A DNA stretch of 64,000 bases. Origin: Candidatus Bathyarchaeia archaeon. Lineage in GTDB: Archaea; Thermoproteota; Bathyarchaeia; 40CM-2-53-6. The position numbers and the translations under genes are program-made. Shown here in pieces: positions 20,357 through 64,000 of the stretch; position 1 is the stretch's first letter; each line of letters begins with the position of its first letter. A model generated the notes under the pieces. That model was not told the DNA's origin, ran no database searches, and saw nothing but the letters and a program-made list of their open reading frames with translations. Where the stretch lies: contig DASYWW010000012.1 in NCBI GenBank assembly GCA_035935655.1, forward strand, positions 15,618-79,617. Reading direction: 5' to 3'.

Positions 20357-20479
20357 GCGGCCGTGGTCCAGAGTCAGCGCTCAACTGCGAGGTTGACGGG
20401 CAGCCTGGTCTATGACACCGGCTTCCCATTACCATGGAAAGAGCCGGGAACCCGGGTTCGAATCCCGGCGGCCGCACCA
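20357..20479 (+). tRNA. tRNA-Gly(CCC) requiring two introns: about 33 nt in the D-arm (non-canonical position) and 13 nt after position 37; CCA encoded
   Basis: Acceptor GCGGCCG/CGGCCGC. T-arm CCGGG-TTCGAAT-CCCGG. Discriminator A then CCA (20476-20479). Anticodon arm CCGGC-TTCCCA[ttaccatggaaag]A-GCCGG. A D-arm GTCA-GCCTGGTCTA-TGAC is obtained only if 20369-20401 is removed. The spliced product is 77 nt. Confidence 0.55.
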
Positions 20480-58225: not shown

Positions 58226-58750
58226 CTAGCCGTGAATTTCTCCTAGCTTTTTCTGAATTTCTTCCACGAGTCCGTCGCCCTTAGGCGACTTTGTTCTGAA
58301 CGAGATCGCAATTTTGATCGGGTCTGTGTTCTCAAGGCGAATTTTTCCTTTCAGTGCCGCTTGTTTGTCAATCCGCAGGAATAGGGTGCCCGCGTTGTCA
58401 ATCCTTGAGGTCAAACTTGAGAACACCTCGGTCCTATCCAACTCGGATAGACGACTCCAAATCATTTGAAGAAAACCTTCCACGCTCTTCGCATTTCTAG
58501 TCGCAAACACTAGGGTTACGATTTCATTGCCATGATGGCCTTTGGCTCGATTCATCGATGAACTTAGGAGCGTTTCGCCAAGGTAGAGGTTTCGTATCCC
58601 CTGCGAAACCTTTTCAGAGTCTTCGGTTGCGTGGATAATCGTAGAAATCGTGACTGAATAGGCCTGCACCGGGGAATCCATTCGAGTCAACCTGTAGAAA
58701 GCGCCCTTTCGCTTTAAAATACCATTAACTTGTAATCTTGTCCCGGTCAT
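58226..58750 (-). CDS. Hypothetical protein (about 175 aa) adjacent to the exosome superoperon
   Basis: ORF with start trimmed to the internal M (MTGTRLQVNG...), because the longer call overlaps the pth2 start. No recognisable motif. Confidence 0.4.
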   Translation of the reverse strand: MTGTRLQVNGILKRKGAFYRLTRMDSPVQAYSVTISTIIHATEDSEKVSQGIRNLYLGETLLSSSMNRAKGHHGNEIVTLVFATRNAKSVEGFLQMIWSRLSELDRTEVFSSLTSRIDNAGTLFLRIDKQAALKGKIRLENTDPIKIAISFRTKSPKGDGLVEEIQKKLGEIHG

Positions 58751-59114
58751 GTCAGAAAGTTTTCGATTCAAACAAGTGCTTGTCGTTAGATTGGATCTCG
58801 ACATGGGAAGGGGAAAAGCGGCTGTGCAGTGTGCACACGCTGCGGTAACAGCGGCCGAAGAGGCCCGCACCCATCTGCACAATTGGTGGAAATCGTGGAT
58901 GGAGGAAGGACAAATGAAGGTCGCGGTAAAGGTTCCGGATCTCGAGAGTGTCTTGGAACTCGAGAGGAAAGGTAAATCGAAAGGGCTTCCGGTTCATTTG
59001 GTCAGAGATAGGGGGCTGACCCAGGTTCCCCCCGGAACAATAACATGCTTGGGAATCGGTCCAGCTCCGGCCGATGTCGTTGACTCTCTAACCGGTAATC
59101 TGGCCCTTTTTTGA
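58749..59114 (+). CDS. pth2: Peptidyl-tRNA hydrolase, archaeal type (Pth2)
   Basis: FKQVLVVRLDLDMGRGKAAVQCAHAAV...GQMKVAVKV...PVHLVRDRGLTQVPPGTITCLGIGPAP...LTGNLAL matches Pth2 over its full length. Confidence 0.85.
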   Translation: MSESFRFKQVLVVRLDLDMGRGKAAVQCAHAAVTAAEEARTHLHNWWKSWMEEGQMKVAVKVPDLESVLELERKGKSKGLPVHLVRDRGLTQVPPGTITCLGIGPAPADVVDSLTGNLALF

Positions 59115-59465
59115 GCGAAGGCTCTCTAAGAGATCGCTATGTTTCGCAGATGCAATCTCAAACCTGCGTTTAGCATCTTGAACGTAATCAACGAACTCTG
59201 AGTCTGCCGTCTCACGGAACGTTGATCCTATCTGTTGAAACAGTTTCTTCAAGATCAACCGCTCGATTACCCTTGATGCGCCACCTAGCGCCTTTTTCAG
59301 CCCAGCCGCGAATTCCTCTACCCTGTCGGGGATCTGCTCCCGATCAAGAGACTGAATTGTGGAGAGATATTGGTAGACTGCCAGCCTGGGCTCATTTCCA
59401 AGAACGGACAATCCCTCGTCAACACATTCAAGCAGTAACTGACCGAAAGACTGCGTTCTGCTCAA
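59088..59465 (-). CDS. Small hypothetical protein
   Basis: 125-aa ORF; stop/start overlap with the downstream multi-TM gene suggests co-transcription. Confidence 0.35.
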   Translation of the reverse strand: MSRTQSFGQLLLECVDEGLSVLGNEPRLAVYQYLSTIQSLDREQIPDRVEEFAAGLKKALGGASRVIERLILKKLFQQIGSTFRETADSEFVDYVQDAKRRFEIASAKHSDLLESLRSKKGQITG

Positions 59466-61297
59466 TTGGACACTCTCCCCTCGGATCCTTGACTTTCGTC
59501 TTCAAAGCTCGGCTTCTTGGTTTCAAAACCCGGGAGTCCCATTCCCTGGGAGGAGCGAACCATTCTGAAGCCATTCAAGTCGTACTTGGCCTGTGATCTG
59601 AAAAGGCCTCTGATTCCATTTAGGGATCTCTCATCGAGAGCTGTGAAGTTGATCAGCACAAGCGTAGACGCTGACTCTGACTCAGACATCTCGACCACAG
59701 ACGACAATACGCCATAGCCTTTCTCGAACCCCTGAAAGAGGATCAAATCTGTGAATACATCGAAAACCATCCCAACCAAACGGCCATGGTTCGCCTGTAG
59801 TAACTTATCGACGGCGTCAAGAAGCAGAGAGGTATCTCTTTCAGGCAGTAGAACGTGCTCTTCAGAAACCTTTGAAGGAGTTGACGTTTTCGTACTGAAA
59901 GTGAACAAGCGCAGGTTATGCTGCCCTCTGAACTGCCTAAATGTTGGACTCCCCATGGATGTGAAAATCGCTATCGGCTCGACATTAGCTTGGAATTCTC
60001 GGGCAAATTTCTGAACTGCATCTTCATAGCTACTTGTAGGGTCATACTCTAGAAGTATTCTACTCCTAGACAATGCCTGATGCTTGGTATTGAGCAGTTT
60101 TGAAAAACTATCCTGCTGGAGCGCAAGATCACGGACCCGAGCCTTAGGGTTCGCCTCGCGTATTGCCTCGAGCGTCCCCGACTGTGCCTCCTCGACATTG
60201 AGAGCCCATATGCGCGGTTTGCGGCGAGGTCCAGGAAGACTGTCAAGGGCCTTGACCTTTGATATTATGAGATTGCATTGATCCAGGCTTAGTTCCCCAA
60301 GATCGACAAGTTCTCTTTTCGTCCTGTGAAATCCGGGAGGAACGCTGAGATCAAGCCCTGCTTCGCCGGCTCCAAAATCAATGGATTGAATCATCATTTG
60401 TGGACCCCTTTGTCGAGAATGATCCGTTGTAGTTCCCTTTAGAATTGCACGGTAGAAAGGTACTTCTGACTTGATGGCATAGAAGACCAACTCTTGTCTA
60501 GTCGCTAGTCCGTCCTCCACGAACCTCTCAACAAGCCTTTTCCTGTCAGATTCTGTGTTGTATAAGACCACGGTATCTTCTTCGGCGCTTGAGCTGACTG
60601 CTTGGAAGATCATCTCACCCCCGGTGACGATTCTACTCAGGATGGTGGGCTCTCTTAGGGCAAAGGACACAAGGACGAACAATGCTCCGTCTGCTACTAT
60701 GCTGAAACTTTTGACCAAGCTTGCGTAGCCTCCCGCAAATGCTTGTTGAAAGAACGTGATGAGACCGAAACAAGCCCAGCAAATACTGATGAGCCTGATC
60801 GAGCTCGAGGCTTTCGGATCTTGTACTCGTCGAGACTGTCTGTAAAAGGAGAGAACAGGAAATGCGATAAACGAGGTCAACAGAATCGAGCTGACTACGA
60901 TGTACCAGCTGTCATAAGAAAAGAAATAGATGCGCTCTGCATTGCTTGTAAGGTCGTTGACGGTGAATGGCTGCCAGATGAGAGTGGCTGTTGCCCAGCC
61001 TATCGAGATTGAGAGGAACGCAAGCAAGGGCATCGGAAGCCTCTTCAGAAAACTCGTAAGCTCTGTGAATCCTCCCTTCCCTCTGCTTTCCTTCAGGAGG
61101 TAACTTGCAAAACCGATCGCGATGGCAGTCAGCGCTAGGAAGATGGTATCCAGGTATGGGTTGGGAGGTCTACTGAGAAGGTCTGAGCTAGTTGTATCGG
61201 AAAGAAACAGAATGAATCCAATGTTTGCGGCGATGATGAAGAAAACTGAGTCTAGAAAGTATGTTTTCTTGGCTCGGATCGTAAAGAGCAGGGCCAT
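59462..61297 (-). CDS. Multi-TM (about 7 helices) membrane protein with a large cytoplasmic RecA/KaiC-like (DUF835-like, no Walker A) C-terminal domain
   Basis: First ~230 aa hydrophobic helices. C-terminal ~350 aa globular with ...VGMVFDVFTDLILFQGFEKGYGVLSSVVEMSE... resembling P-loop-less KaiC-like domains seen fused to 7TM modules in archaea. Confidence 0.5.
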   Translation of the reverse strand: MALLFTIRAKKTYFLDSVFFIIAANIGFILFLSDTTSSDLLSRPPNPYLDTIFLALTAIAIGFASYLLKESRGKGGFTELTSFLKRLPMPLLAFLSISIGWATATLIWQPFTVNDLTSNAERIYFFSYDSWYIVVSSILLTSFIAFPVLSFYRQSRRVQDPKASSSIRLISICWACFGLITFFQQAFAGGYASLVKSFSIVADGALFVLVSFALREPTILSRIVTGGEMIFQAVSSSAEEDTVVLYNTESDRKRLVERFVEDGLATRQELVFYAIKSEVPFYRAILKGTTTDHSRQRGPQMMIQSIDFGAGEAGLDLSVPPGFHRTKRELVDLGELSLDQCNLIISKVKALDSLPGPRRKPRIWALNVEEAQSGTLEAIREANPKARVRDLALQQDSFSKLLNTKHQALSRSRILLEYDPTSSYEDAVQKFAREFQANVEPIAIFTSMGSPTFRQFRGQHNLRLFTFSTKTSTPSKVSEEHVLLPERDTSLLLDAVDKLLQANHGRLVGMVFDVFTDLILFQGFEKGYGVLSSVVEMSESESASTLVLINFTALDERSLNGIRGLFRSQAKYDLNGFRMVRSSQGMGLPGFETKKPSFEDESQGSEGRVSN

Positions 61298-61353
61298 GCA
61301 AGAGGCGCTGAGCGCGAGCAGATCTAAGATCTGATGAACGAATTTTCACCGCC

Positions 61354-61551
61354 TCACTCGTCTTTGGTAATGACTTCTTTCGGCGATTCATCTTTCCTCA
61401 TCTCGTAGACGAGCCTAACAGATTCTTGATTCTCGTTCAAACTTAGCTGAAAATGAGATGATGCAGCTACCCCAAGCAGCCTTGCTATGTCCACGGGAAT
61501 TAGCAAGTATAGGCTGTCTCTAAGCTTTACAGGCTTGACCTTCAGTGGCAC
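61354..61551 (-). CDS. AbrB/MazE-like swapped-hairpin small DNA-binding protein
   Basis: MPLKVKPVKLRDSLYLLIPVDIARLLGV resembles the SpoVT/AbrB N-domain pattern (vkv.k.G.s..v.IPkei.e.lgl); 65 aa. Confidence 0.4.
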   Translation of the reverse strand: MPLKVKPVKLRDSLYLLIPVDIARLLGVAASSHFQLSLNENQESVRLVYEMRKDESPKEVITKDE

Positions 61552-61624
61552 GAGGAGTCAACTTAGCCACCGCAAAGTGGCTGTTCGGCTTGAGAGTGGT
61601 GTAACCTTGATAGTAGTGATTAGG

Positions 61625-62635
61625 TTACAATTGCAAATCGTCTATCGATTCTTCATTGCCCGAAAGGCCAGTCCAACCGAAATGCCCCTTTAGGAGATCG
61701 GCTGCCTGCTGCGAATCGCCTGCTTCAATAACCGAGATTCTGTACAAAGCCGCCAGTTTCTTGGCTTTCTCCGTTAGCCCAGGAATCGCCACGAGGATTG
61801 TCTGGCTGGGACTCACATCAAACACTTTGGCGTAGAGCGACGCTATTGGTGTCTCTTCAATCTCCCGATCACTTGCAATTACGTCGAGAACAACAAGCTC
61901 AGAGGAGCCTTTCGAGGCAACCGCGTCAAACCTATGGAGGGCCCCAGAACGACCGGCGACCTGACCAGGCATCTCGACCTTATACTGGAAATCCTCGAGC
62001 GTGGCTCCAATAGGCTTCATCACAAGGAAGGTCCGCTTGAATTCATCCTCTGCCTCGGCGCTCATTCGATAACTGTAGACGTTGACGAACCCAGTGTCTT
62101 TGATGGTGAAAATATGTCCACAACTTCTACATCGATGAATTGGACTTGGTAAGTCCGACCTCTTTCCACACTGGGAGCATTGGAACCAAGCACCGAGCTT
62201 TTGATAATCCACCCCAGCTTCTATCAACTCCTTATTGCATTTCGGACAGTAGAGGCCGCCTTCGACTAGAAAGTTGTCTACGCTGTCGATGGTCCCGCAA
62301 GCCGTGTGCTCAAGAAGAGTCTTTCGTTCTATGTCGATAGAGTTGCAATTCGGACAGACGTAATCATTGCTGACATTTGCAGACAAACAACTCGGACAAA
62401 CCAGGATTTTTTCGTGGAATTTGCGCTTGAATATTCCCACATCCCAGAGTTTCTCAACCAGTTGCGTCGCAGCAGTTGTATCACCATCAACAACCTCCTC
62501 GACTTCTGGATATCTTGCCGTTTGGCTGAGATCAAAGCTGGGCACAAGTTCAACAATTTCCCCCTTGACAAATCTACCTAGAAGTAGCTGGACACTTTGA
62601 CCCTGGTATAGGGTAAGCCTGTCCTTGGATGTCAT
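61625..62635 (-). CDS. Four-zinc-ribbon hypothetical protein with C-terminal alpha/beta domain
   Basis: CPSC...CPNC, CPKC...CSQC, CRSC plus additional Cys/His pairs within 120 aa. C-terminal HRFDAVASKGSSELVVLDVIASD...VAIPG segment. Confidence 0.5.
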   Translation of the reverse strand: MTSKDRLTLYQGQSVQLLLGRFVKGEIVELVPSFDLSQTARYPEVEEVVDGDTTAATQLVEKLWDVGIFKRKFHEKILVCPSCLSANVSNDYVCPNCNSIDIERKTLLEHTACGTIDSVDNFLVEGGLYCPKCNKELIEAGVDYQKLGAWFQCSQCGKRSDLPSPIHRCRSCGHIFTIKDTGFVNVYSYRMSAEAEDEFKRTFLVMKPIGATLEDFQYKVEMPGQVAGRSGALHRFDAVASKGSSELVVLDVIASDREIEETPIASLYAKVFDVSPSQTILVAIPGLTEKAKKLAALYRISVIEAGDSQQAADLLKGHFGWTGLSGNEESIDDLQL

Positions 62636-62784
62636 TCCTATTGACTCTACCCCTCTAGGTGCCTCTGGCTATACGCAGGCGAGACGCGAGGTGATGGATA
62701 TTCAGGAGTTGTACCTTGTTCGAGACGCTGTACGTATCAGAACGAATATGGTTTGCGAGCTTCCTCAACCCGTTTTGAAGACTA

Positions 62785-63549
62785 TTGGCTGACTCCTCGA
62801 CGAATCCGAACGCTAGTTCTAGAACTCCTACCGGGATTCCAGGCCTCGACAAGCTGCTTACTGGAGGATTGCCTAGGAACAGAACTATTCTGCTCTCTGG
62901 AGGACCGGGGACTGGCAAGACAATACTATCCTCTCAGTACATTGTCAATGGGATCTTGGACTATGACGAACCCGGCGTAATTGTCAGCCTCGACGAAAAC
63001 AAACAGCACGTCTTCGAGGAAATGCTTGACTTCGGTTGGGATTTCCAAGACCTCGAGAATAGCAAGAAGCTAATTTTCCTCGAAGCTTCCCCGATCAGAT
63101 ATCTCCCTGCTGAGATTAAAGTTGGAAAACTGACCGTCGGCCGGAAGGAGTTCTCCATGGCGACGTTGATCGAGATGATTAAGACCAGTGTTCGAGAGAT
63201 CGGGGCCAAGAGAATCGTTGTTGACCCCGTGACGACATTGGTCTTTCAATACGAAGGAGTGGCAGCGCAACGAAACGCATTGGTTGAACTCATGGAAGCA
63301 CTAGCAGAGACCGGCGCAACATGTTTGATTACGACTGAACTTCGAAGACCTGGTTTCGAAAGGAGCCTCGACTACGAAGAATATCTCGCTCACGGCGTCA
63401 TCCTTCTCCAGCAATTGCAAGTTGGGAAGTCACTACTGCGCGTCATCCAGGTTGAGAAAATGCGCAAAACTCCCCTGGACAACCAACCAAGGCCTTACCG
63501 AATAACTGATACTGGAATCGAAGTCTTTCCACGCGAGAGTGTTCTGTAA
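62785..63549 (+). CDS. KaiC/RecA-superfamily single-domain ATPase
   Basis: GIPGLDKLLTGGLPRNRTILLSGGPGTGKTILSSQY (Walker A), IVVDPVT (Walker B region), KaiC-like C-terminal LRVIQVEKMRKTP. Confidence 0.8.
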   Translation: MADSSTNPNASSRTPTGIPGLDKLLTGGLPRNRTILLSGGPGTGKTILSSQYIVNGILDYDEPGVIVSLDENKQHVFEEMLDFGWDFQDLENSKKLIFLEASPIRYLPAEIKVGKLTVGRKEFSMATLIEMIKTSVREIGAKRIVVDPVTTLVFQYEGVAAQRNALVELMEALAETGATCLITTELRRPGFERSLDYEEYLAHGVILLQQLQVGKSLLRVIQVEKMRKTPLDNQPRPYRITDTGIEVFPRESVL

Positions 63550-63554
63550 TGAGA

Positions 63555-64000
63555 CTAAACTGATTTTTTGACCCGGGACTCTTCAAAGGGAATTATGAGA
63601 CCCATCGAGGGATCCCTATTGTATGGCGTCCAGGTGGTTATGTGCTGGGCACCTTTCATTTTCGACACTCTTATGAAACGCGCCAAGCCATCTTTCGTGT
63701 CTTCCACTTTCATCTCAATTACACCGTCGACCTTGTCTTGTATTGCGGCGATAATCGCCGGATGAAATGCCTTCCTCGAAAGCGACGTCACACAACTGGC
63801 TCGGTTACTCCTTATCTTTGCAATAAGGGTGTGCAGAAAATCGAATGAGGGCCTCACTCCGCTCCTTTGAATAAGAGTGGTCAGCGAATCCATGGCGAGC
63901 AATACATTGCCAGAGTCCCGAGCTTCCGACAAGGCCTTTGTTACGACGATACTCAGGTCCGACAACCGTTGCGGATCCTCGCTATACTGTTCCTGACTTT
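63555..64000 (-). CDS. RecA/KaiC-like domain protein, 5'-truncated by the window edge
   Basis: The frame is open from 64000 to the stop at 63555; the track M at 63965 is a TTG. ...VLLAMDSLTTLI...DGVIEMKVEDTKDGLARFIRVSKMKGAQHITTWTPY resembles the C-terminal half of KaiC-like domains. Confidence 0.4.
   Translation of the reverse strand, partial: SQEQYSEDPQRLSDLSIVVTKALSEARDSGNVLLAMDSLTTLIQRSGVRPSFDFLHTLIAKIRSNRASCVTSLSRKAFHPAIIAAIQDKVDGVIEMKVEDTKDGLARFIRVSKMKGAQHITTWTPYNRDPSMGLIIPFEESRVKKSV

What the first reader, a model, noticed from the sequence alone, without database searches (positions are those of the whole stretch)
59088..64000. Membrane-anchored RecA/KaiC-like module: multi-TM protein with DUF835-like domain, AbrB-like protein, four-zinc-ribbon protein and two further KaiC-like ATPases
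Within 5 kb there are a 611-aa polytopic membrane protein whose cytoplasmic half is a P-loop-less RecA-like domain, a co-transcribed 125-aa protein, an AbrB/MazE-like DNA-binding protein, a 336-aa protein with at least four CxxC zinc ribbons, a bona fide single-domain KaiC-like ATPase, and a second RecA-like protein running off the window edge. This combination of a membrane sensor, an ATPase/pseudo-ATPase oscillator-like pair and small DNA-binding proteins resembles KaiC-based signalling or an uncharacterised defence/regulatory system. None of the components has an assigned function.
Basis: inference. Interest (0 to 1): 0.55.

Follow-up and report, generated by a model that had tools for sequence, protein, structure and literature searches.

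The report
Membrane-anchored pseudo-KaiC signalling gene cluster
This stretch of a soil archaeon (Bathyarchaeia) genome encodes a probable signalling module of a kind already predicted for archaea but never tested: a membrane protein carrying two dead copies of the clock ATPase KaiC, a small helical partner protein, live KaiC-like ATPases and three small probable DNA-binding proteins.

Summary
All six ORFs exist as described. The window comes from a soil Bathyarchaeia genome.

**The six proteins**
- **The 611-aa protein** has six TM helices. Behind them sit two tandem KaiC-like domains, not one, and both lack a P-loop. The first is MEDS-like and the second DUF835/DUF7504-like.
- **The 125-aa protein** is a five-helix PH0832-like protein. 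It is weakly related to NitrOD5/DUF3227.
- **The 65-aa protein** is AbrB-like.
- **The 336-aa protein** is a stand-alone TackOD1 protein. It has three zinc sites, not four.
- **The 254-aa protein** is a single-domain KaiC-family ATPase.
- **The edge gene** is a 345-aa protein with a probable wHTH domain fused to a KaiC-like domain.

A third KaiC gene (246 aa) lies just outside the window.

**Co-conservation is only partial**
- KaiC → membrane tandem pseudo-KaiC → small helical protein recurs as a tight operon in at least three unrelated genomic contexts and in about 17 metagenome loci.
- The TackOD1, AbrB, KaiC254 and wHTH-KaiC genes travel with it only in one lineage that also keeps the housekeeping flanks.
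- The helical-protein family also sits beside histidine-kinase/receiver pairs, stand-alone MEDS proteins and a GvpD-like KaiC. That pattern fits a signalling adaptor.

**Verdict**
- No defence-system match and no KaiA/KaiB were found.
- This is a member of the computationally predicted archaeal KaiC/inactivated-KaiC signalling class.
- It is of moderate interest and is not a new kind of system.

The parts
59088..59465 (-). p125: a small five-helix PH0832-like protein, the putative adaptor. Its start overlaps the stop of the upstream membrane-protein gene by 4 nt.
   Evidence: ORF. No Pfam or NCBIfam hit. AF2 pLDDT 86.3 with helices 7-20, 24-37, 42-47, 49-79 and 91-120. Foldseek best hit is 2p9x PH0832, TM 0.78-0.80, rmsd 2.1-2.9 A. 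Homologues follow the TM pseudo-KaiC gene in distant loci. Weak NitrOD5/NitrOD2 hits in family members.
59462..61297 (-). TM611: a 611-aa membrane protein with six TM helices followed by two tandem P-loop-less KaiC-like domains.
   Evidence: It has 289 family representatives at E <= 1e-3.
60653..61297 (-). TM611 residues 1-215: the six-helix membrane domain, N-in/C-in, with a short outside beta-hairpin at residues 111-128. Putative input module.
   Evidence: Hydropathy and charge bias. DSSP of the model. No Pfam family matches.
60116..60592 (-). TM611 residues 236-394: first inactivated KaiC-like domain (MEDS-like). 'YNTESDRKR' stands where Walker A would be.
   Evidence: Pfam MEDS at 58-77 bits in distant full-length homologues at the equivalent position. 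hhalign against a KaiC profile gives E = 0.015, in register at Walker A. The model shows an alpha/beta fold.
59528..60115 (-). TM611 residues 395-590: second inactivated KaiC-like domain (DUF835/DUF7504/DUF7090-like). 'EYDPTSSYED' stands at the Walker A position; the Walker B-like 'MVFD' is kept.
   Evidence: DUF7090 E = 0.079 in the window protein. DUF835, DUF7504 and DUF7090 hits in homologues. hhalign E = 0.0016, in register at Walker B. This domain occurs behind many different N-terminal modules.
61354..61551 (-). AbrB65: a 65-aa AbrB/SpoVT-like (swapped-hairpin) putative DNA-binding protein.
   Evidence: A profile of 8 orthologues hits PDB C56 7xi6 (E = 5.5e-4), C68 3o27 (E = 9.6e-3) and an AbrB/MazE/SpoVT chain (E = 0.82). 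C68 is an AbrB-like transcription factor (PMC5569661). No Pfam SpoVT_AbrB hit.
61625..62635 (-). Tack336: a stand-alone TackOD1 zinc-ribbon protein (residues 28-191) with a conserved, unassigned C-terminal domain (residues about 195-336).
   Evidence: PF18551 E = 8.3e-36, 123.7 bits against a cut-off of 32. Invariant C80/C83, C94/C97, H110/C113, C130/C133, C153/C156, C169/C172, plus the C-terminal motif GxSGxxHxFD...D273...AIP...EA. No PDB sequence match for the C-terminal domain.
62636..62784 (.). 149-nt divergent intergenic region between Tack336 (-) and KaiC254 (+). Presumed to hold both promoters.
   Evidence: Coordinates; sequence. No repeats or palindromes found. Promoter function is inferred, not shown.
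62785..63549 (+). KaiC254: a single-domain KaiC-family P-loop ATPase.
   Evidence: PF06745 E = 1.1e-65. NCBIfam KaiC-type models all score below their equivalog cut-offs. Walker A GGPGTGKT, Walker B RIVVD, 'DE' at the catalytic Glu pair.
63555..64000 (-). C-terminal 147 residues of HTH-KaiC345. The full gene is 345 aa: an N-terminal putative winged-helix domain plus a KaiC-like ATPase. It runs off the window.
   Evidence: The ORF is open to base 64000. DUF7504 and KaiC hits. The full protein on L001 2001-3038 matches PF06745 at E = 7e-26, has Walker A GDPAAGKT and 'DD' at the Glu pair, and gives a weak wHTH hit at residues 31-63.

Best explanation
**What it is.** The locus is a KaiC-family signal-transduction module.

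**The core unit**
- Its core is an operon that is conserved in other genomes.
- The first core protein is a membrane protein with a six-helix domain and only a ~20-residue outside hairpin. That suggests it senses something in or at the membrane.
- Behind the helices sit two tandem KaiC-like domains that cannot bind ATP through a P-loop.
- The second core protein is a small PH0832-like helical protein, translationally coupled to the first.
- The third is a live single-domain KaiC-like ATPase. In this lineage its orthologue is the 246-aa gene just outside the window.

**Proposed mechanism (inferred, not shown)**
- The tandem pseudo-KaiC cassette acts as a membrane-tethered scaffold or decoy.
- It binds the live KaiC-like ATPases in a signal-dependent way, directly or through the helical adaptor.
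- ATP binding and autophosphorylation of the ATPases then set whether DNA-binding outputs are held at the membrane or released.

**Likely lineage-specific output layer**
- The wHTH-KaiC fusion.
- The AbrB-like protein.
- The TackOD1 zinc-ribbon protein.

**Shown:** domain identities, folds, loss of the P-loops, gene order, and co-conservation of the core.

**Inferred:** physical interactions, the signal, phosphorylation, and the targets.
For: **The membrane protein**
- Six TM helices, cytoplasmic C-terminus.
- The top 50 Foldseek PDB hits to the model are all KaiC structures (cyanobacterial, designed, and the dodecameric KaiC-RS). The best is 7s65_B, E = 5e-7, probability 1.0.
- Distant full-length homologues (23-29% identity) carry Pfam MEDS followed by DUF835/DUF7504 at the equivalent positions.
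- MEDS and DUF835 are both listed as inactivated KaiC domains in PMC5847659.
- hhalign puts both domains in register with the KaiC Walker A and Walker B regions, at E = 0.015 and 0.0016. A TM-domain control gives 0.53.
- No P-loop anywhere in the family.

**The ATPases**
- Three KaiC-like proteins have intact Walker A and B motifs.

**Core co-conservation**
- KaiC → TM-MEDS-DUF835 → p125-like, with 9-22-nt gaps or overlapping stop/start codons, occurs in three contexts. One is radical-SAM/S25e (L030-L032). One is prenyltransferase/Alba (L038). The third is the window's own amino-acid-kinase/PTH2 context.
- About 17 complete or near-complete triads appear among 80 metagenome loci found with the p125-like protein alone.
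- Of 25 well-flanked p125-like loci, 12 have a KaiC-superfamily gene within 3 kb.

**Signalling character of the parts**
- The p125-like family also lies beside PAS-HisKA-HATPase plus REC pairs, stand-alone MEDS, wHTH-MEDS and a GvpD-like KaiC.
- The DUF835-like domain is fused to varied N-terminal modules: six or seven TM helices, HTH-MEDS, vWA, or CARDB with a TM helix.
- Predicted output parts are a TackOD1 domain (E = 8e-36), an AbrB-like protein and a putative wHTH domain.

**A five-gene unit**
- In L028 the unit KaiC254-Tack336-AbrB65-TM611-p125 persists although the upstream flank differs.
Against: - No interaction, ATPase activity or phosphorylation is shown.
- The window protein itself scores below every Pfam threshold. 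The sequence link to KaiC rests on homologues, weak hhalign scores and a model of medium confidence (pLDDT 77, pTM 0.58).
- Foldseek TM-scores are low (0.24-0.31) because the domain arrangement differs and the TM part is included.
- Solo paralogues of the membrane protein exist without KaiC or p125 next to them (L021, L025, L034, L041).
- About half of well-flanked p125-like genes have no KaiC-superfamily neighbour.
- Tack336, AbrB65, KaiC254 and HTH-KaiC345 were not found next to the distant triads.
- Distant TackOD1 homologues sit in other contexts, so their membership of one pathway is unproven.
- The wHTH assignment is weak (E = 0.006).
- The key 2017 paper that defines this class could not be read.
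Confidence: 0.55

Rival explanations
1. Only the membrane pseudo-KaiC and p125 pair, with one KaiC, is a functional unit. The TackOD1 protein, the AbrB-like protein, KaiC254 and wHTH-KaiC345 are neighbours by descent that serve other pathways, for example regulation of type IV pili or adhesion.
For: - In every locus where all seven genes occur, the housekeeping flanks (amino-acid kinase, PTH2, proteasome alpha, exosome) are also conserved. This synteny is not independent evidence.
- Distant triads lack these four genes.
- Distant TackOD1 homologues lie next to CheW (L036) or T2SSE/T2SSF pilus genes (L037), not KaiC.
- The literature places arCOG06883/TackOD1 in thaumarchaeal pilus loci and links KaiC-like ATPases to pili (PMC4858521).
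Against: - Tack336, AbrB65, TM611 and p125 are co-directional, with gaps of 73 nt and 56 nt and then a 4-nt overlap. This looks like one transcript.
- In L028 the five-gene unit survives a change of upstream flank.
- No pilus or CheW genes were detected in the 64-kb window, though only by a limited phmmer test.
Confidence: 0.25
2. An anti-virus defence or toxin-antitoxin-like island. The AbrB-like protein would be the antitoxin or regulator, and the ATPases and the zinc-ribbon protein would be the effectors.
For: - AbrB-fold proteins are common antitoxins.
- The C-terminal domain of Tack336 has an unassigned conserved acidic motif.
- In one distant locus a CHAT (caspase-like) protein follows the triad (L038, E = 8e-5, just under the Pfam threshold).
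Against: - PADLOC gives no family match beyond weak P-loop similarity (best E = 1.4e-6 to mad8, over about 50 residues).
- The locus sits in stable housekeeping synteny across relatives whose membrane-protein identity ranges from 90% down to 41%.
- No integrase, repeats or strong composition shift were seen.
- No toxin domain was identified.
Confidence: 0.04
3. A KaiC-based timer or circadian-like oscillator. The tandem pseudo-KaiC would mimic the CI-CII double ring, and p125 would play a KaiB-like role.
For: - The membrane protein's two tandem KaiC-like domains echo the double-domain layout of true KaiC, and double-domain KaiC structures are its best structural matches.
- Live KaiC paralogues are adjacent.
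Against: - Both tandem domains lack P-loops.
- All live KaiCs are single-domain and score far below the NCBIfam circadian-KaiC cut-offs (141 against 546 bits).
- No KaiA or KaiB domains were called in any of the gene tables read.
- p125 is all-helical, not thioredoxin-like.
Confidence: 0.05
4. The KaiC-like ATPases are RadA/RecA paralogues (the aRadC type) working in DNA repair, with the DNA-binding proteins as cofactors. The membrane protein would be unrelated.
For: - KaiC254 gives weak hits to DnaB_C, RadA, RadB and RecA models.
- Archaeal KaiC-like RadA paralogues have been linked to repair (own knowledge, not checked here).
Against: - The best matches by far are KaiC models (E = 1e-65, against 1e-2 or worse for RadA/RadB).
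- The ATPase gene is tightly operonic with the membrane pseudo-KaiC in several contexts.
- No repair genes are adjacent.
Confidence: 0.05

Closest known systems
Archaeal KaiC-like / inactivated-KaiC (iKaiC: MEDS, DUF835) signalling networks proposed by Makarova, Galperin and Koonin 2017, as cited and tabulated in Galperin et al. 2018 (PMC5847659)
   Same: - Single-domain KaiC-like ATPases sit next to P-loop-less KaiC-like domains (MEDS, DUF835).
- These are joined to membrane input modules, small helical adaptor-like proteins and DNA-binding or output domains.
   Different: - Both iKaiC types occur in tandem behind a six-helix membrane domain, and this pairs with a PH0832-like protein.
- I could not read the 2017 paper. 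I therefore cannot say whether this exact architecture or triad is already described there.
- Nothing in this class has been tested in Bathyarchaeia.
Cyanobacterial KaiC (double-domain clock ATPase; e.g. PDB 7s65, 3k0a)
   Same: - RecA/KaiC fold.
- Two KaiC-type domains in tandem in one chain.
- It is the best structural match to the membrane protein.
   Different: - Here both tandem domains have lost Walker A.
- The chain is membrane-anchored.
- The live ATPases are separate single-domain proteins.
- No KaiA, KaiB, SasA or CikA was seen.
TackOD1 (PF18551; arCOG06883), an output domain of TACK-group response regulators
   Same: - Strong Pfam match.
- The five CxxC plus HxxC pattern is present.
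- The stand-alone architecture is one of those listed.
- An orthologue (OLD55421) is in the paper's own table.
   Different: - It is not fused to a receiver domain.
- It lies next to KaiC-like genes rather than pilus genes.
- It carries a conserved ~140-residue C-terminal domain of unknown fold.
[quoted passage not shown]
   Same: - p125 superposes on PH0832 (TM 0.78-0.80).
- Three of 27 family members weakly hit NitrOD5, and one hits NitrOD2.
- Like those domains, the family is found with receiver/kinase genes and with KaiC-like genes (PMC5847659).
   Different: - No Pfam hit reaches threshold.
- The sequence match to PH0832 is only E = 0.38.
- No eukaryotic DEATH-fold structure appears among the top 50 Foldseek hits.
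C68 of pSSVx (PDB 3o27) and C56 (PDB 7xi6), AbrB-like swapped-hairpin transcription factors
   Same: Similar size, and a profile match over the hairpin core (E = 5.5e-4 and 9.6e-3). C68 binds specific promoter DNA (PMC5569661).
   Different: This one is chromosomal rather than from a plasmid-virus. No fold model or DNA target was obtained here, and it does not hit Pfam SpoVT_AbrB.

Membership tests
KaiC family ATPase (Pfam PF06745): KaiC254 and HTH-KaiC345 | Profile match above the Pfam gathering score | tested here: met
   KaiC254 scores 221.7 bits against 26.6. HTH-KaiC345 scores 91.4 bits. The off-window KaiC246 scores 189.9 bits.
KaiC family ATPase (Pfam PF06745): KaiC254 and HTH-KaiC345 | Walker A GxxxxGK[ST] and Walker B hhhhD | tested here: met
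   GGPGTGKT with RIVVD, GDPAAGKT with LLAMD, GQPGTGKT with LVFD. The catalytic Glu pair is altered to DE, DD and IE, whereas the distant core KaiCs keep EE.
KaiC family ATPase (Pfam PF06745): KaiC254 and HTH-KaiC345 | ATP hydrolysis and autophosphorylation | not testable with these tools
   Needs biochemistry.
Bona fide circadian KaiC / Kai oscillator | Double-domain active KaiC reaching the equivalog cut-off | tested here: not met
   circ_KaiC TIGR02655 scores 141 bits against 546. PRK09302 scores 180 against 408. The proteins are 246-345 aa with a single domain.
Bona fide circadian KaiC / Kai oscillator | KaiB (and KaiA) partner genes | tested here: not met
   No such Pfam domain was called on any gene of the locus or of its relatives. 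Only neighbourhoods were examined, not whole genomes.
Inactivated KaiC (iKaiC: MEDS PF14417, DUF835 PF05763): the 611-aa protein | Profile match to MEDS or DUF835 | tested here: inconclusive
   The window protein's best hit is DUF7090, 13.1 bits against 27. Full-length homologues reach MEDS at 58-77 bits (cut-off 29.8) and hit DUF835, DUF7504 and DUF7090 below threshold.
Inactivated KaiC (iKaiC: MEDS PF14417, DUF835 PF05763): the 611-aa protein | RecA/KaiC-like fold | tested here: met
   Foldseek against PDB: the top 50 hits are all KaiC structures, with E down to 5e-7 and probability 1.0. The model's pLDDT is 77. hhalign is in register.
Inactivated KaiC (iKaiC: MEDS PF14417, DUF835 PF05763): the 611-aa protein | Loss of the Walker A P-loop | tested here: met
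   No [AG]xxxxGK[ST] in the protein or at the equivalent position in about 150 representatives. 'YNTESDRKR' and 'EYDPTSSYED' occupy the P-loop positions.
TackOD1 (PF18551): the 336-aa protein | Profile match and the conserved five CxxC plus HxxC pattern | tested here: met
   123.7 bits against 32. All 11 Cys and the His are invariant in 21 homologues. The pattern is as described in PMC5847659.
TackOD1 (PF18551): the 336-aa protein | Acts as an output of a receiver domain (fusion to or adjacency with REC) | tested here: not met
   The protein is stand-alone and no REC gene lies in the locus. Stand-alone TackOD1 is, however, an architecture listed by the authors.
AbrB/SpoVT swapped-hairpin DNA-binding proteins: the 65-aa protein | Sequence-profile similarity to family members | tested here: inconclusive
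   No Pfam SpoVT_AbrB hit. The orthologue profile hits C56 (E = 5.5e-4), C68 (E = 9.6e-3) and an annotated AbrB/MazE/SpoVT chain (E = 0.82).
AbrB/SpoVT swapped-hairpin DNA-binding proteins: the 65-aa protein | Swapped-hairpin dimer fold and DNA binding | not tested
Archaeal 'Death domain-like' family (DUF3227/NitrOD5, NitrOD2): p125 | Profile match to PF11537 or PF18550 | tested here: inconclusive
   The window protein gives no hit. Three of 27 family members hit NitrOD5 (best E = 0.0072), and one hits NitrOD2 (E = 0.063). All are below threshold.
Archaeal 'Death domain-like' family (DUF3227/NitrOD5, NitrOD2): p125 | Death-fold helical bundle | tested here: not met
   Only PH0832 matches well. 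No DEATH, CARD or PYD structure is among the top 50 hits.
Archaeal 'Death domain-like' family (DUF3227/NitrOD5, NitrOD2): p125 | Genomic association with receiver domains and KaiC-like proteins | tested here: met
   Neighbours include KaiC/iKaiC triads, PAS-HK plus REC pairs, MEDS proteins and a GvpD-like KaiC.
Known anti-phage defence systems (PADLOC-DB v2) | Match of any component to a defence-system model | tested here: not met
   Four of the seven proteins give no hit. The three ATPases give only short P-loop matches.

The most novel reading that the evidence does not exclude
**Proposed assembly.** The two dead KaiC domains of the membrane protein assemble into a KaiC-like double-ring hexamer on the membrane. 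This ring templates, or co-assembles with, the live single-domain KaiC-like ATPase.

**Role of p125.** The PH0832-like p125 acts as the state-specific binder, functionally like KaiB.

**What this would be.** It would be a split, membrane-gated KaiC machine: a switch or hourglass whose phosphorylation state is set by a membrane signal. It would be read out by the wHTH-KaiC, AbrB-like and TackOD1 proteins.

**Wider implication.** The p125 family would then be a shared adaptor between archaeal two-component systems and KaiC systems.
Probability: 0.12. Interest if true: 0.7.

Novelty: new member of a known kind. Interest (0 to 1): 0.36.

Why it matters
**Background.** Archaea have few classical signalling systems. 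KaiC-like ATPases and their inactivated relatives have been proposed, so far only from sequence analysis, to fill that gap.

**What this locus offers.**
- It gives a compact, conserved and testable unit: a live KaiC, a membrane-anchored tandem pseudo-KaiC, and a small helical protein.
- That helical-protein family also accompanies histidine-kinase/receiver pairs.
- If these proteins bind each other, that would be direct evidence for the proposed KaiC signalling hubs.
- It would also suggest an adaptor shared between the two kinds of signalling system.

**Limits.**
- The organism is an uncultured soil Bathyarchaeon, so any test must be heterologous.
- The finding fits existing predictions and does not overturn them.

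Tried and rejected
- The defining paper (Makarova et al. 2017, mBio, PMC5717392) is not held. Statements about that class rest on how PMC5847659 and PMC4858521 cite it.
Narrower alignments worked.
Fetching the same proteins by exact look-up solved this.

**Searches that gave nothing**
- p125 against PDB by sequence gave only chance-level hits: DotB at E = 0.009-0.019 and PH0832 at E = 0.38.
- p125 against Pfam gave nothing at threshold.
- The Tack336 C-terminal domain gave no PDB or Pfam match. My guess that it is restriction-endonuclease-like, based on the GxSGxxHxFD motif, is untested and is not claimed.
- hhalign of the whole family profile against the single KaiC254 sequence was weak (E = 0.17). 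It improved with domain-wise profiles.
- A repeat and palindrome search of 59-64 kb found nothing that looks like an operator.
- No other KaiC, pilus or CheW genes were found in the window by phmmer.
- A literature search for PH0832/2P9X found nothing useful.

**Explanations rejected**
- The defence hypothesis.
- The circadian-oscillator hypothesis (and the gene tables).

**Not attempted**
- The sigma-70 promoter scanner was not used, because it does not apply to archaea.

Full report
**Source and setting**

The window comes from a soil Bathyarchaeia genome.
- The 125-aa protein is 100% identical to a protein named by NCBI as from a 'Candidatus Bathyarchaeia archaeon' MAG, on a 244-kb contig.
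- The closest genome contigs are grassland-soil 'Ca. Bathyarchaeota' MAGs, about 90% identical.
- Next to the finding lies a typical archaeal housekeeping block: Rrp42/Rrp41/Rrp4 exosome genes, SBDS, proteasome alpha, a PF01877 RNA-binding protein and PTH2.
- GC content in 58-64 kb (0.49) is slightly below the rest of the window (0.49-0.55). There is no sharp break.

**Observation**

- The last ORF stays open to base 64000.
- It is completed on an identical short contig as a 345-aa protein.
- In relatives the cluster goes one gene further, to a 246-aa KaiC, and ends at an amino-acid-kinase gene.

In window orientation the likely transcription units are:
- [Tack336 → AbrB65 → TM611 → p125] on the minus strand, with gaps of 73 nt and 56 nt and then a 4-nt overlap.
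- [KaiC254] on the plus strand, divergent from Tack336 across 149 nt.
- [KaiC246 → HTH-KaiC345] on the minus strand, convergent with KaiC254.

**The 611-aa protein (TM611)**

- Topology:
  - Hydropathy gives six TM segments between residues 14 and 212.
  - Positive charges lie on the N-terminus and on loops 68-88 and 152-164, so both ends are cytoplasmic.
- Model:
  - An AlphaFold2 model built on 30 homologues has mean pLDDT 77.4 and pTM 0.58.
  - It shows the six helices and a short outside beta-hairpin (residues 111-128).
  - Two alpha/beta domains follow, at residues 242-390 and 413-581.
- Fold match:
  - The 50 best Foldseek matches in the PDB are all KaiC structures (best 7s65_B, E = 5e-7, probability 1.0).
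  - TM-scores are low (0.24-0.31). This is expected when the membrane part is included and the two domains are packed differently.
  - This supports the fold, not the assembly.
- Sequence level, window protein: it reaches no Pfam threshold. Its best hit is DUF7090 at E = 0.079.
- Sequence level, homologues:
  - An exhaustive search finds 289 representatives.
  - Full-length relatives at 23-29% identity carry Pfam MEDS (58-77 bits) at the position of the first domain.
  - The same relatives carry DUF835/DUF7504/DUF7090 at the second.
- Literature: Galperin et al. 2018 list both MEDS and DUF835 as inactivated KaiC-like domains (PMC5847659).
- Domain-wise hhalign against a 47-sequence KaiC profile:
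  - The first domain aligns in register at Walker A (E = 0.015): 'YNTESDRKR' against 'GGPGTGKT'.
  - The second aligns at Walker B (E = 0.0016): 'MVFD' against 'IVVD'.
  - The TM domain, used as a control, gives 0.53.
- P-loop: no family member has a Walker A at these positions.

There are two such domains in tandem, an arrangement that echoes the CI-CII layout of true KaiC.

The second domain is also found behind other N-terminal modules: six or seven TM helices alone, HTH plus MEDS, vWA, and CARDB with a TM helix. That pattern is typical of a signalling cassette.

**The 125-aa protein (p125)**

- It has no Pfam or NCBIfam match.
- A model built on 18 sequences (pLDDT 86.3, pTM 0.76) is a five-helix protein.
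- Its only good structural match is PH0832 of Pyrococcus horikoshii, a structural-genomics protein of unknown function (2p9x; TM 0.78-0.80, rmsd 2.1-2.9 A over 96-97 residues).
- With a broader 27-sequence profile, PH0832 appears weakly by sequence (E = 0.38).
- Three members hit Pfam NitrOD5 (formerly DUF3227; best E = 0.0072). That makes it the family hit by the most members. One member hits NitrOD2.
- NitrOD2 and NitrOD5 are described as response-regulator output domains of an 'archaeal Death domain-like' family.
- These are converging but sub-threshold signals, so I treat membership as unproven. No eukaryotic Death-fold structure appears among the Foldseek hits.

**The other proteins**

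- **Tack336**
  - It matches TackOD1 at E = 8e-36.
  - It keeps all 11 Cys and the His of the five CxxC plus HxxC pattern.
  - An orthologue is listed in the authors' own Table S4.
  - Residues 195-336 form a second conserved domain (GxSGxxHxFD ... D273 ... AIP ... EA) with no detectable relative.
- **AbrB65**
  - A profile of eight orthologues hits the small archaeal proteins C56 (E = 5.5e-4) and C68 (E = 9.6e-3).
  - C68 is an AbrB-like swapped-hairpin transcription factor (PMC5569661).
- **KaiC254, HTH-KaiC345 and KaiC246**
  - All match Pfam KaiC with intact Walker A and B motifs.
  - The catalytic Glu pair is altered to DE, DD and IE respectively.
  - All are far below the NCBIfam cut-offs for circadian KaiC.

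**Is the combination more than juxtaposition?**

- **Within the lineage.** In 20 or so genome loci whose membrane protein is 41-90% identical, the seven-gene cluster is intact wherever the contig is long enough. So are the housekeeping flanks. This is inheritance, not independent evidence.
- **One exception: L028.** It keeps KaiC254-Tack336-AbrB65-TM611-p125 but has different genes upstream and lacks the other two KaiCs there.
- **Distant relatives (26-37% identity): the triad.**
  - A smaller unit recurs: KaiC (236-250 aa) → TM-MEDS-DUF835 (617-634 aa) → p125-like (106-112 aa).
  - Gaps are 9-22 nt, or the stop and start codons overlap.
- **Distant relatives: the contexts.**
  - One is between radical-SAM genes and ribosomal protein S25e (L030-L032).
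  - One is between a prenyltransferase and SSB/Alba genes, with a second p125-like gene inserted before the membrane gene (L038).
- **Orthology of the core KaiC.** The KaiC of these triads is 38-40% identical to the off-window KaiC246, but only 27-31% to KaiC254. The orthologue of the core ATPase therefore lies just outside the window.
- **Search from the other side.**
  - I scanned metagenomes with the p125-like protein alone.
  - About 17 of the 80 loci show the triad complete or nearly so, and eight more are cut by contig ends.
  - Of 25 loci with enough flank, 12 have a KaiC-superfamily gene within 3 kb.
  - By rough reckoning (inference), with on the order of ten such genes per archaeal genome, chance would give a few per cent.
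- **Other neighbours of p125-like genes.** The rest lie mostly beside PAS-HisKA-HATPase kinases and receiver proteins. Others lie beside stand-alone MEDS, wHTH-MEDS and a GvpD-like KaiC. The small protein's family is therefore tied to signalling genes of two kinds.
- **Counter-examples.**
  - Solo copies of the membrane protein exist (L021, L025, L034, L041).
  - Distant TackOD1 homologues sit by CheW, by type IV pilus ATPase and platform genes, or by a glycosyltransferase. None sits by KaiC.

**Mechanism**

- **What the evidence supports.**
  - There is a membrane-anchored input.
  - A tandem pseudo-ATPase cassette of the KaiC fold follows it.
  - A live KaiC ATPase and a small helical partner are inherited together with it.
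- **What I infer.**
  - The dead cassette is a scaffold or decoy that binds the live ATPase(s), directly or through p125, in response to a membrane-level cue.
  - The nucleotide or phosphorylation state of the ATPases then controls the DNA-binding proteins encoded alongside.
  - The outside loop is too small for a ligand-binding domain, so sensing within the membrane is more likely.
- **Confidence.** I give the general statement (a KaiC-family signalling module with this core) about 0.55. The specific steps are less likely.
- **Main rival (0.25).** Only the core is one pathway, and the TackOD1, AbrB, KaiC254 and wHTH-KaiC genes are lineage-specific neighbours with their own roles, perhaps in pilus control (PMC4858521).
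- **Minor rivals.** Defence (PADLOC negative), a circadian-type oscillator (no double-domain active KaiC, no KaiA/KaiB) and DNA repair are each unlikely.

**Comparison and novelty**

- The locus works like, and meets the testable features of, the KaiC/iKaiC signalling networks proposed for archaea in 2017-2018. TackOD1 is a catalogued domain.
- What I could not find in the accessible literature is threefold:
  - the six-helix-MEDS-DUF835 tandem architecture;
  - its conserved operon with a KaiC and a PH0832-like protein;
  - the double association of that small-protein family with KaiC systems and two-component systems.
- The founding paper could not be read. I therefore file this conservatively as a new member of a known, computationally predicted kind.
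- Interest is moderate. It is a clean, testable unit for an untested hypothesis, but it fits expectations and comes from an uncultured organism.

Noticed in passing
window 20357-20476 (+): Rfam finds a tRNA (40.9 bits, full model) spanning 120 nt, which suggests an intron-containing archaeal tRNA. ARAGORN reports no tRNA anywhere in the window.
   Followed up: no
window 59088-59114: The 3' ends of p125 (-) and PTH2 (+) overlap convergently by 27 nt. The same overlap is kept in relatives, e.g. L003 12211-12237.
   Followed up: partly
window 58226-58882 (-): The listed 218-aa ORF for the PF01877 RNA-binding protein starts at an upstream TTG and overlaps PTH2. Gene calls on identical or related contigs give 151-157 aa, so the real start is probably internal.
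   Followed up: no
window 61625-62050 (Tack336 residues ~195-336): Tack336 has a conserved C-terminal domain outside the TackOD1 model. Its motif is GxSGxxHxFD ... D273 ... (L)VAIP ... (I)EA, and it has no Pfam or PDB sequence relative.
   Followed up: partly
L038 8328-8915 (+): In one distant locus the triad is followed by a 195-aa protein with a CHAT (caspase-like) match (E = 8e-5, 22.7 bits against a cut-off of 24) and a His/Cys dyad-like 'HISAHG ... SACEAG'. This is intriguing next to a possible Death-like adaptor.
   Followed up: no
L049, L052, L080, L083, L095, L102 (metagenome loci): p125-like genes lie directly beside PAS-HisKA-HATPase histidine kinases and 149-aa receiver proteins. 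The small-protein family is therefore shared between two-component and KaiC-type contexts.
   Followed up: partly
L042 1-5375: One metagenome locus has two TM-MEDS-DUF835 genes in divergent orientation, one KaiC and two consecutive p125-like genes. This shows local duplication of the module. L033 also has two p125-like genes in a row.
   Followed up: no
L020 (DASPWZ010000014.1) and L030 (DATKLC010000028.1): These contigs carry the archaeal cluster, and L020 also the proteasome and exosome genes. Yet they are deposited in MAGs labelled as bacteria (Dormiibacterota, Krumholzibacteriaceae), which is probably a binning error.
   Followed up: no
window 59462-61297 versus the other genes, across loci L003-L028: Across the same set of relatives the membrane protein diverges much faster than its neighbours. 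Its phmmer score falls from 1341 to about 473. Over the same loci KaiC254 falls from 551 to 477 and Tack336 from 760 to 556, while proteasome alpha stays at 514-551. This is as expected for a sensor.
   Followed up: no
TM611 residues 468-475 (window ~59873-59896): A Ser/Thr-rich stretch 'STKTSTPS' with invariant S472, T473 and P474 sits in the second pseudo-KaiC domain. It is a candidate phosphorylation site, which is speculation.
   Followed up: no
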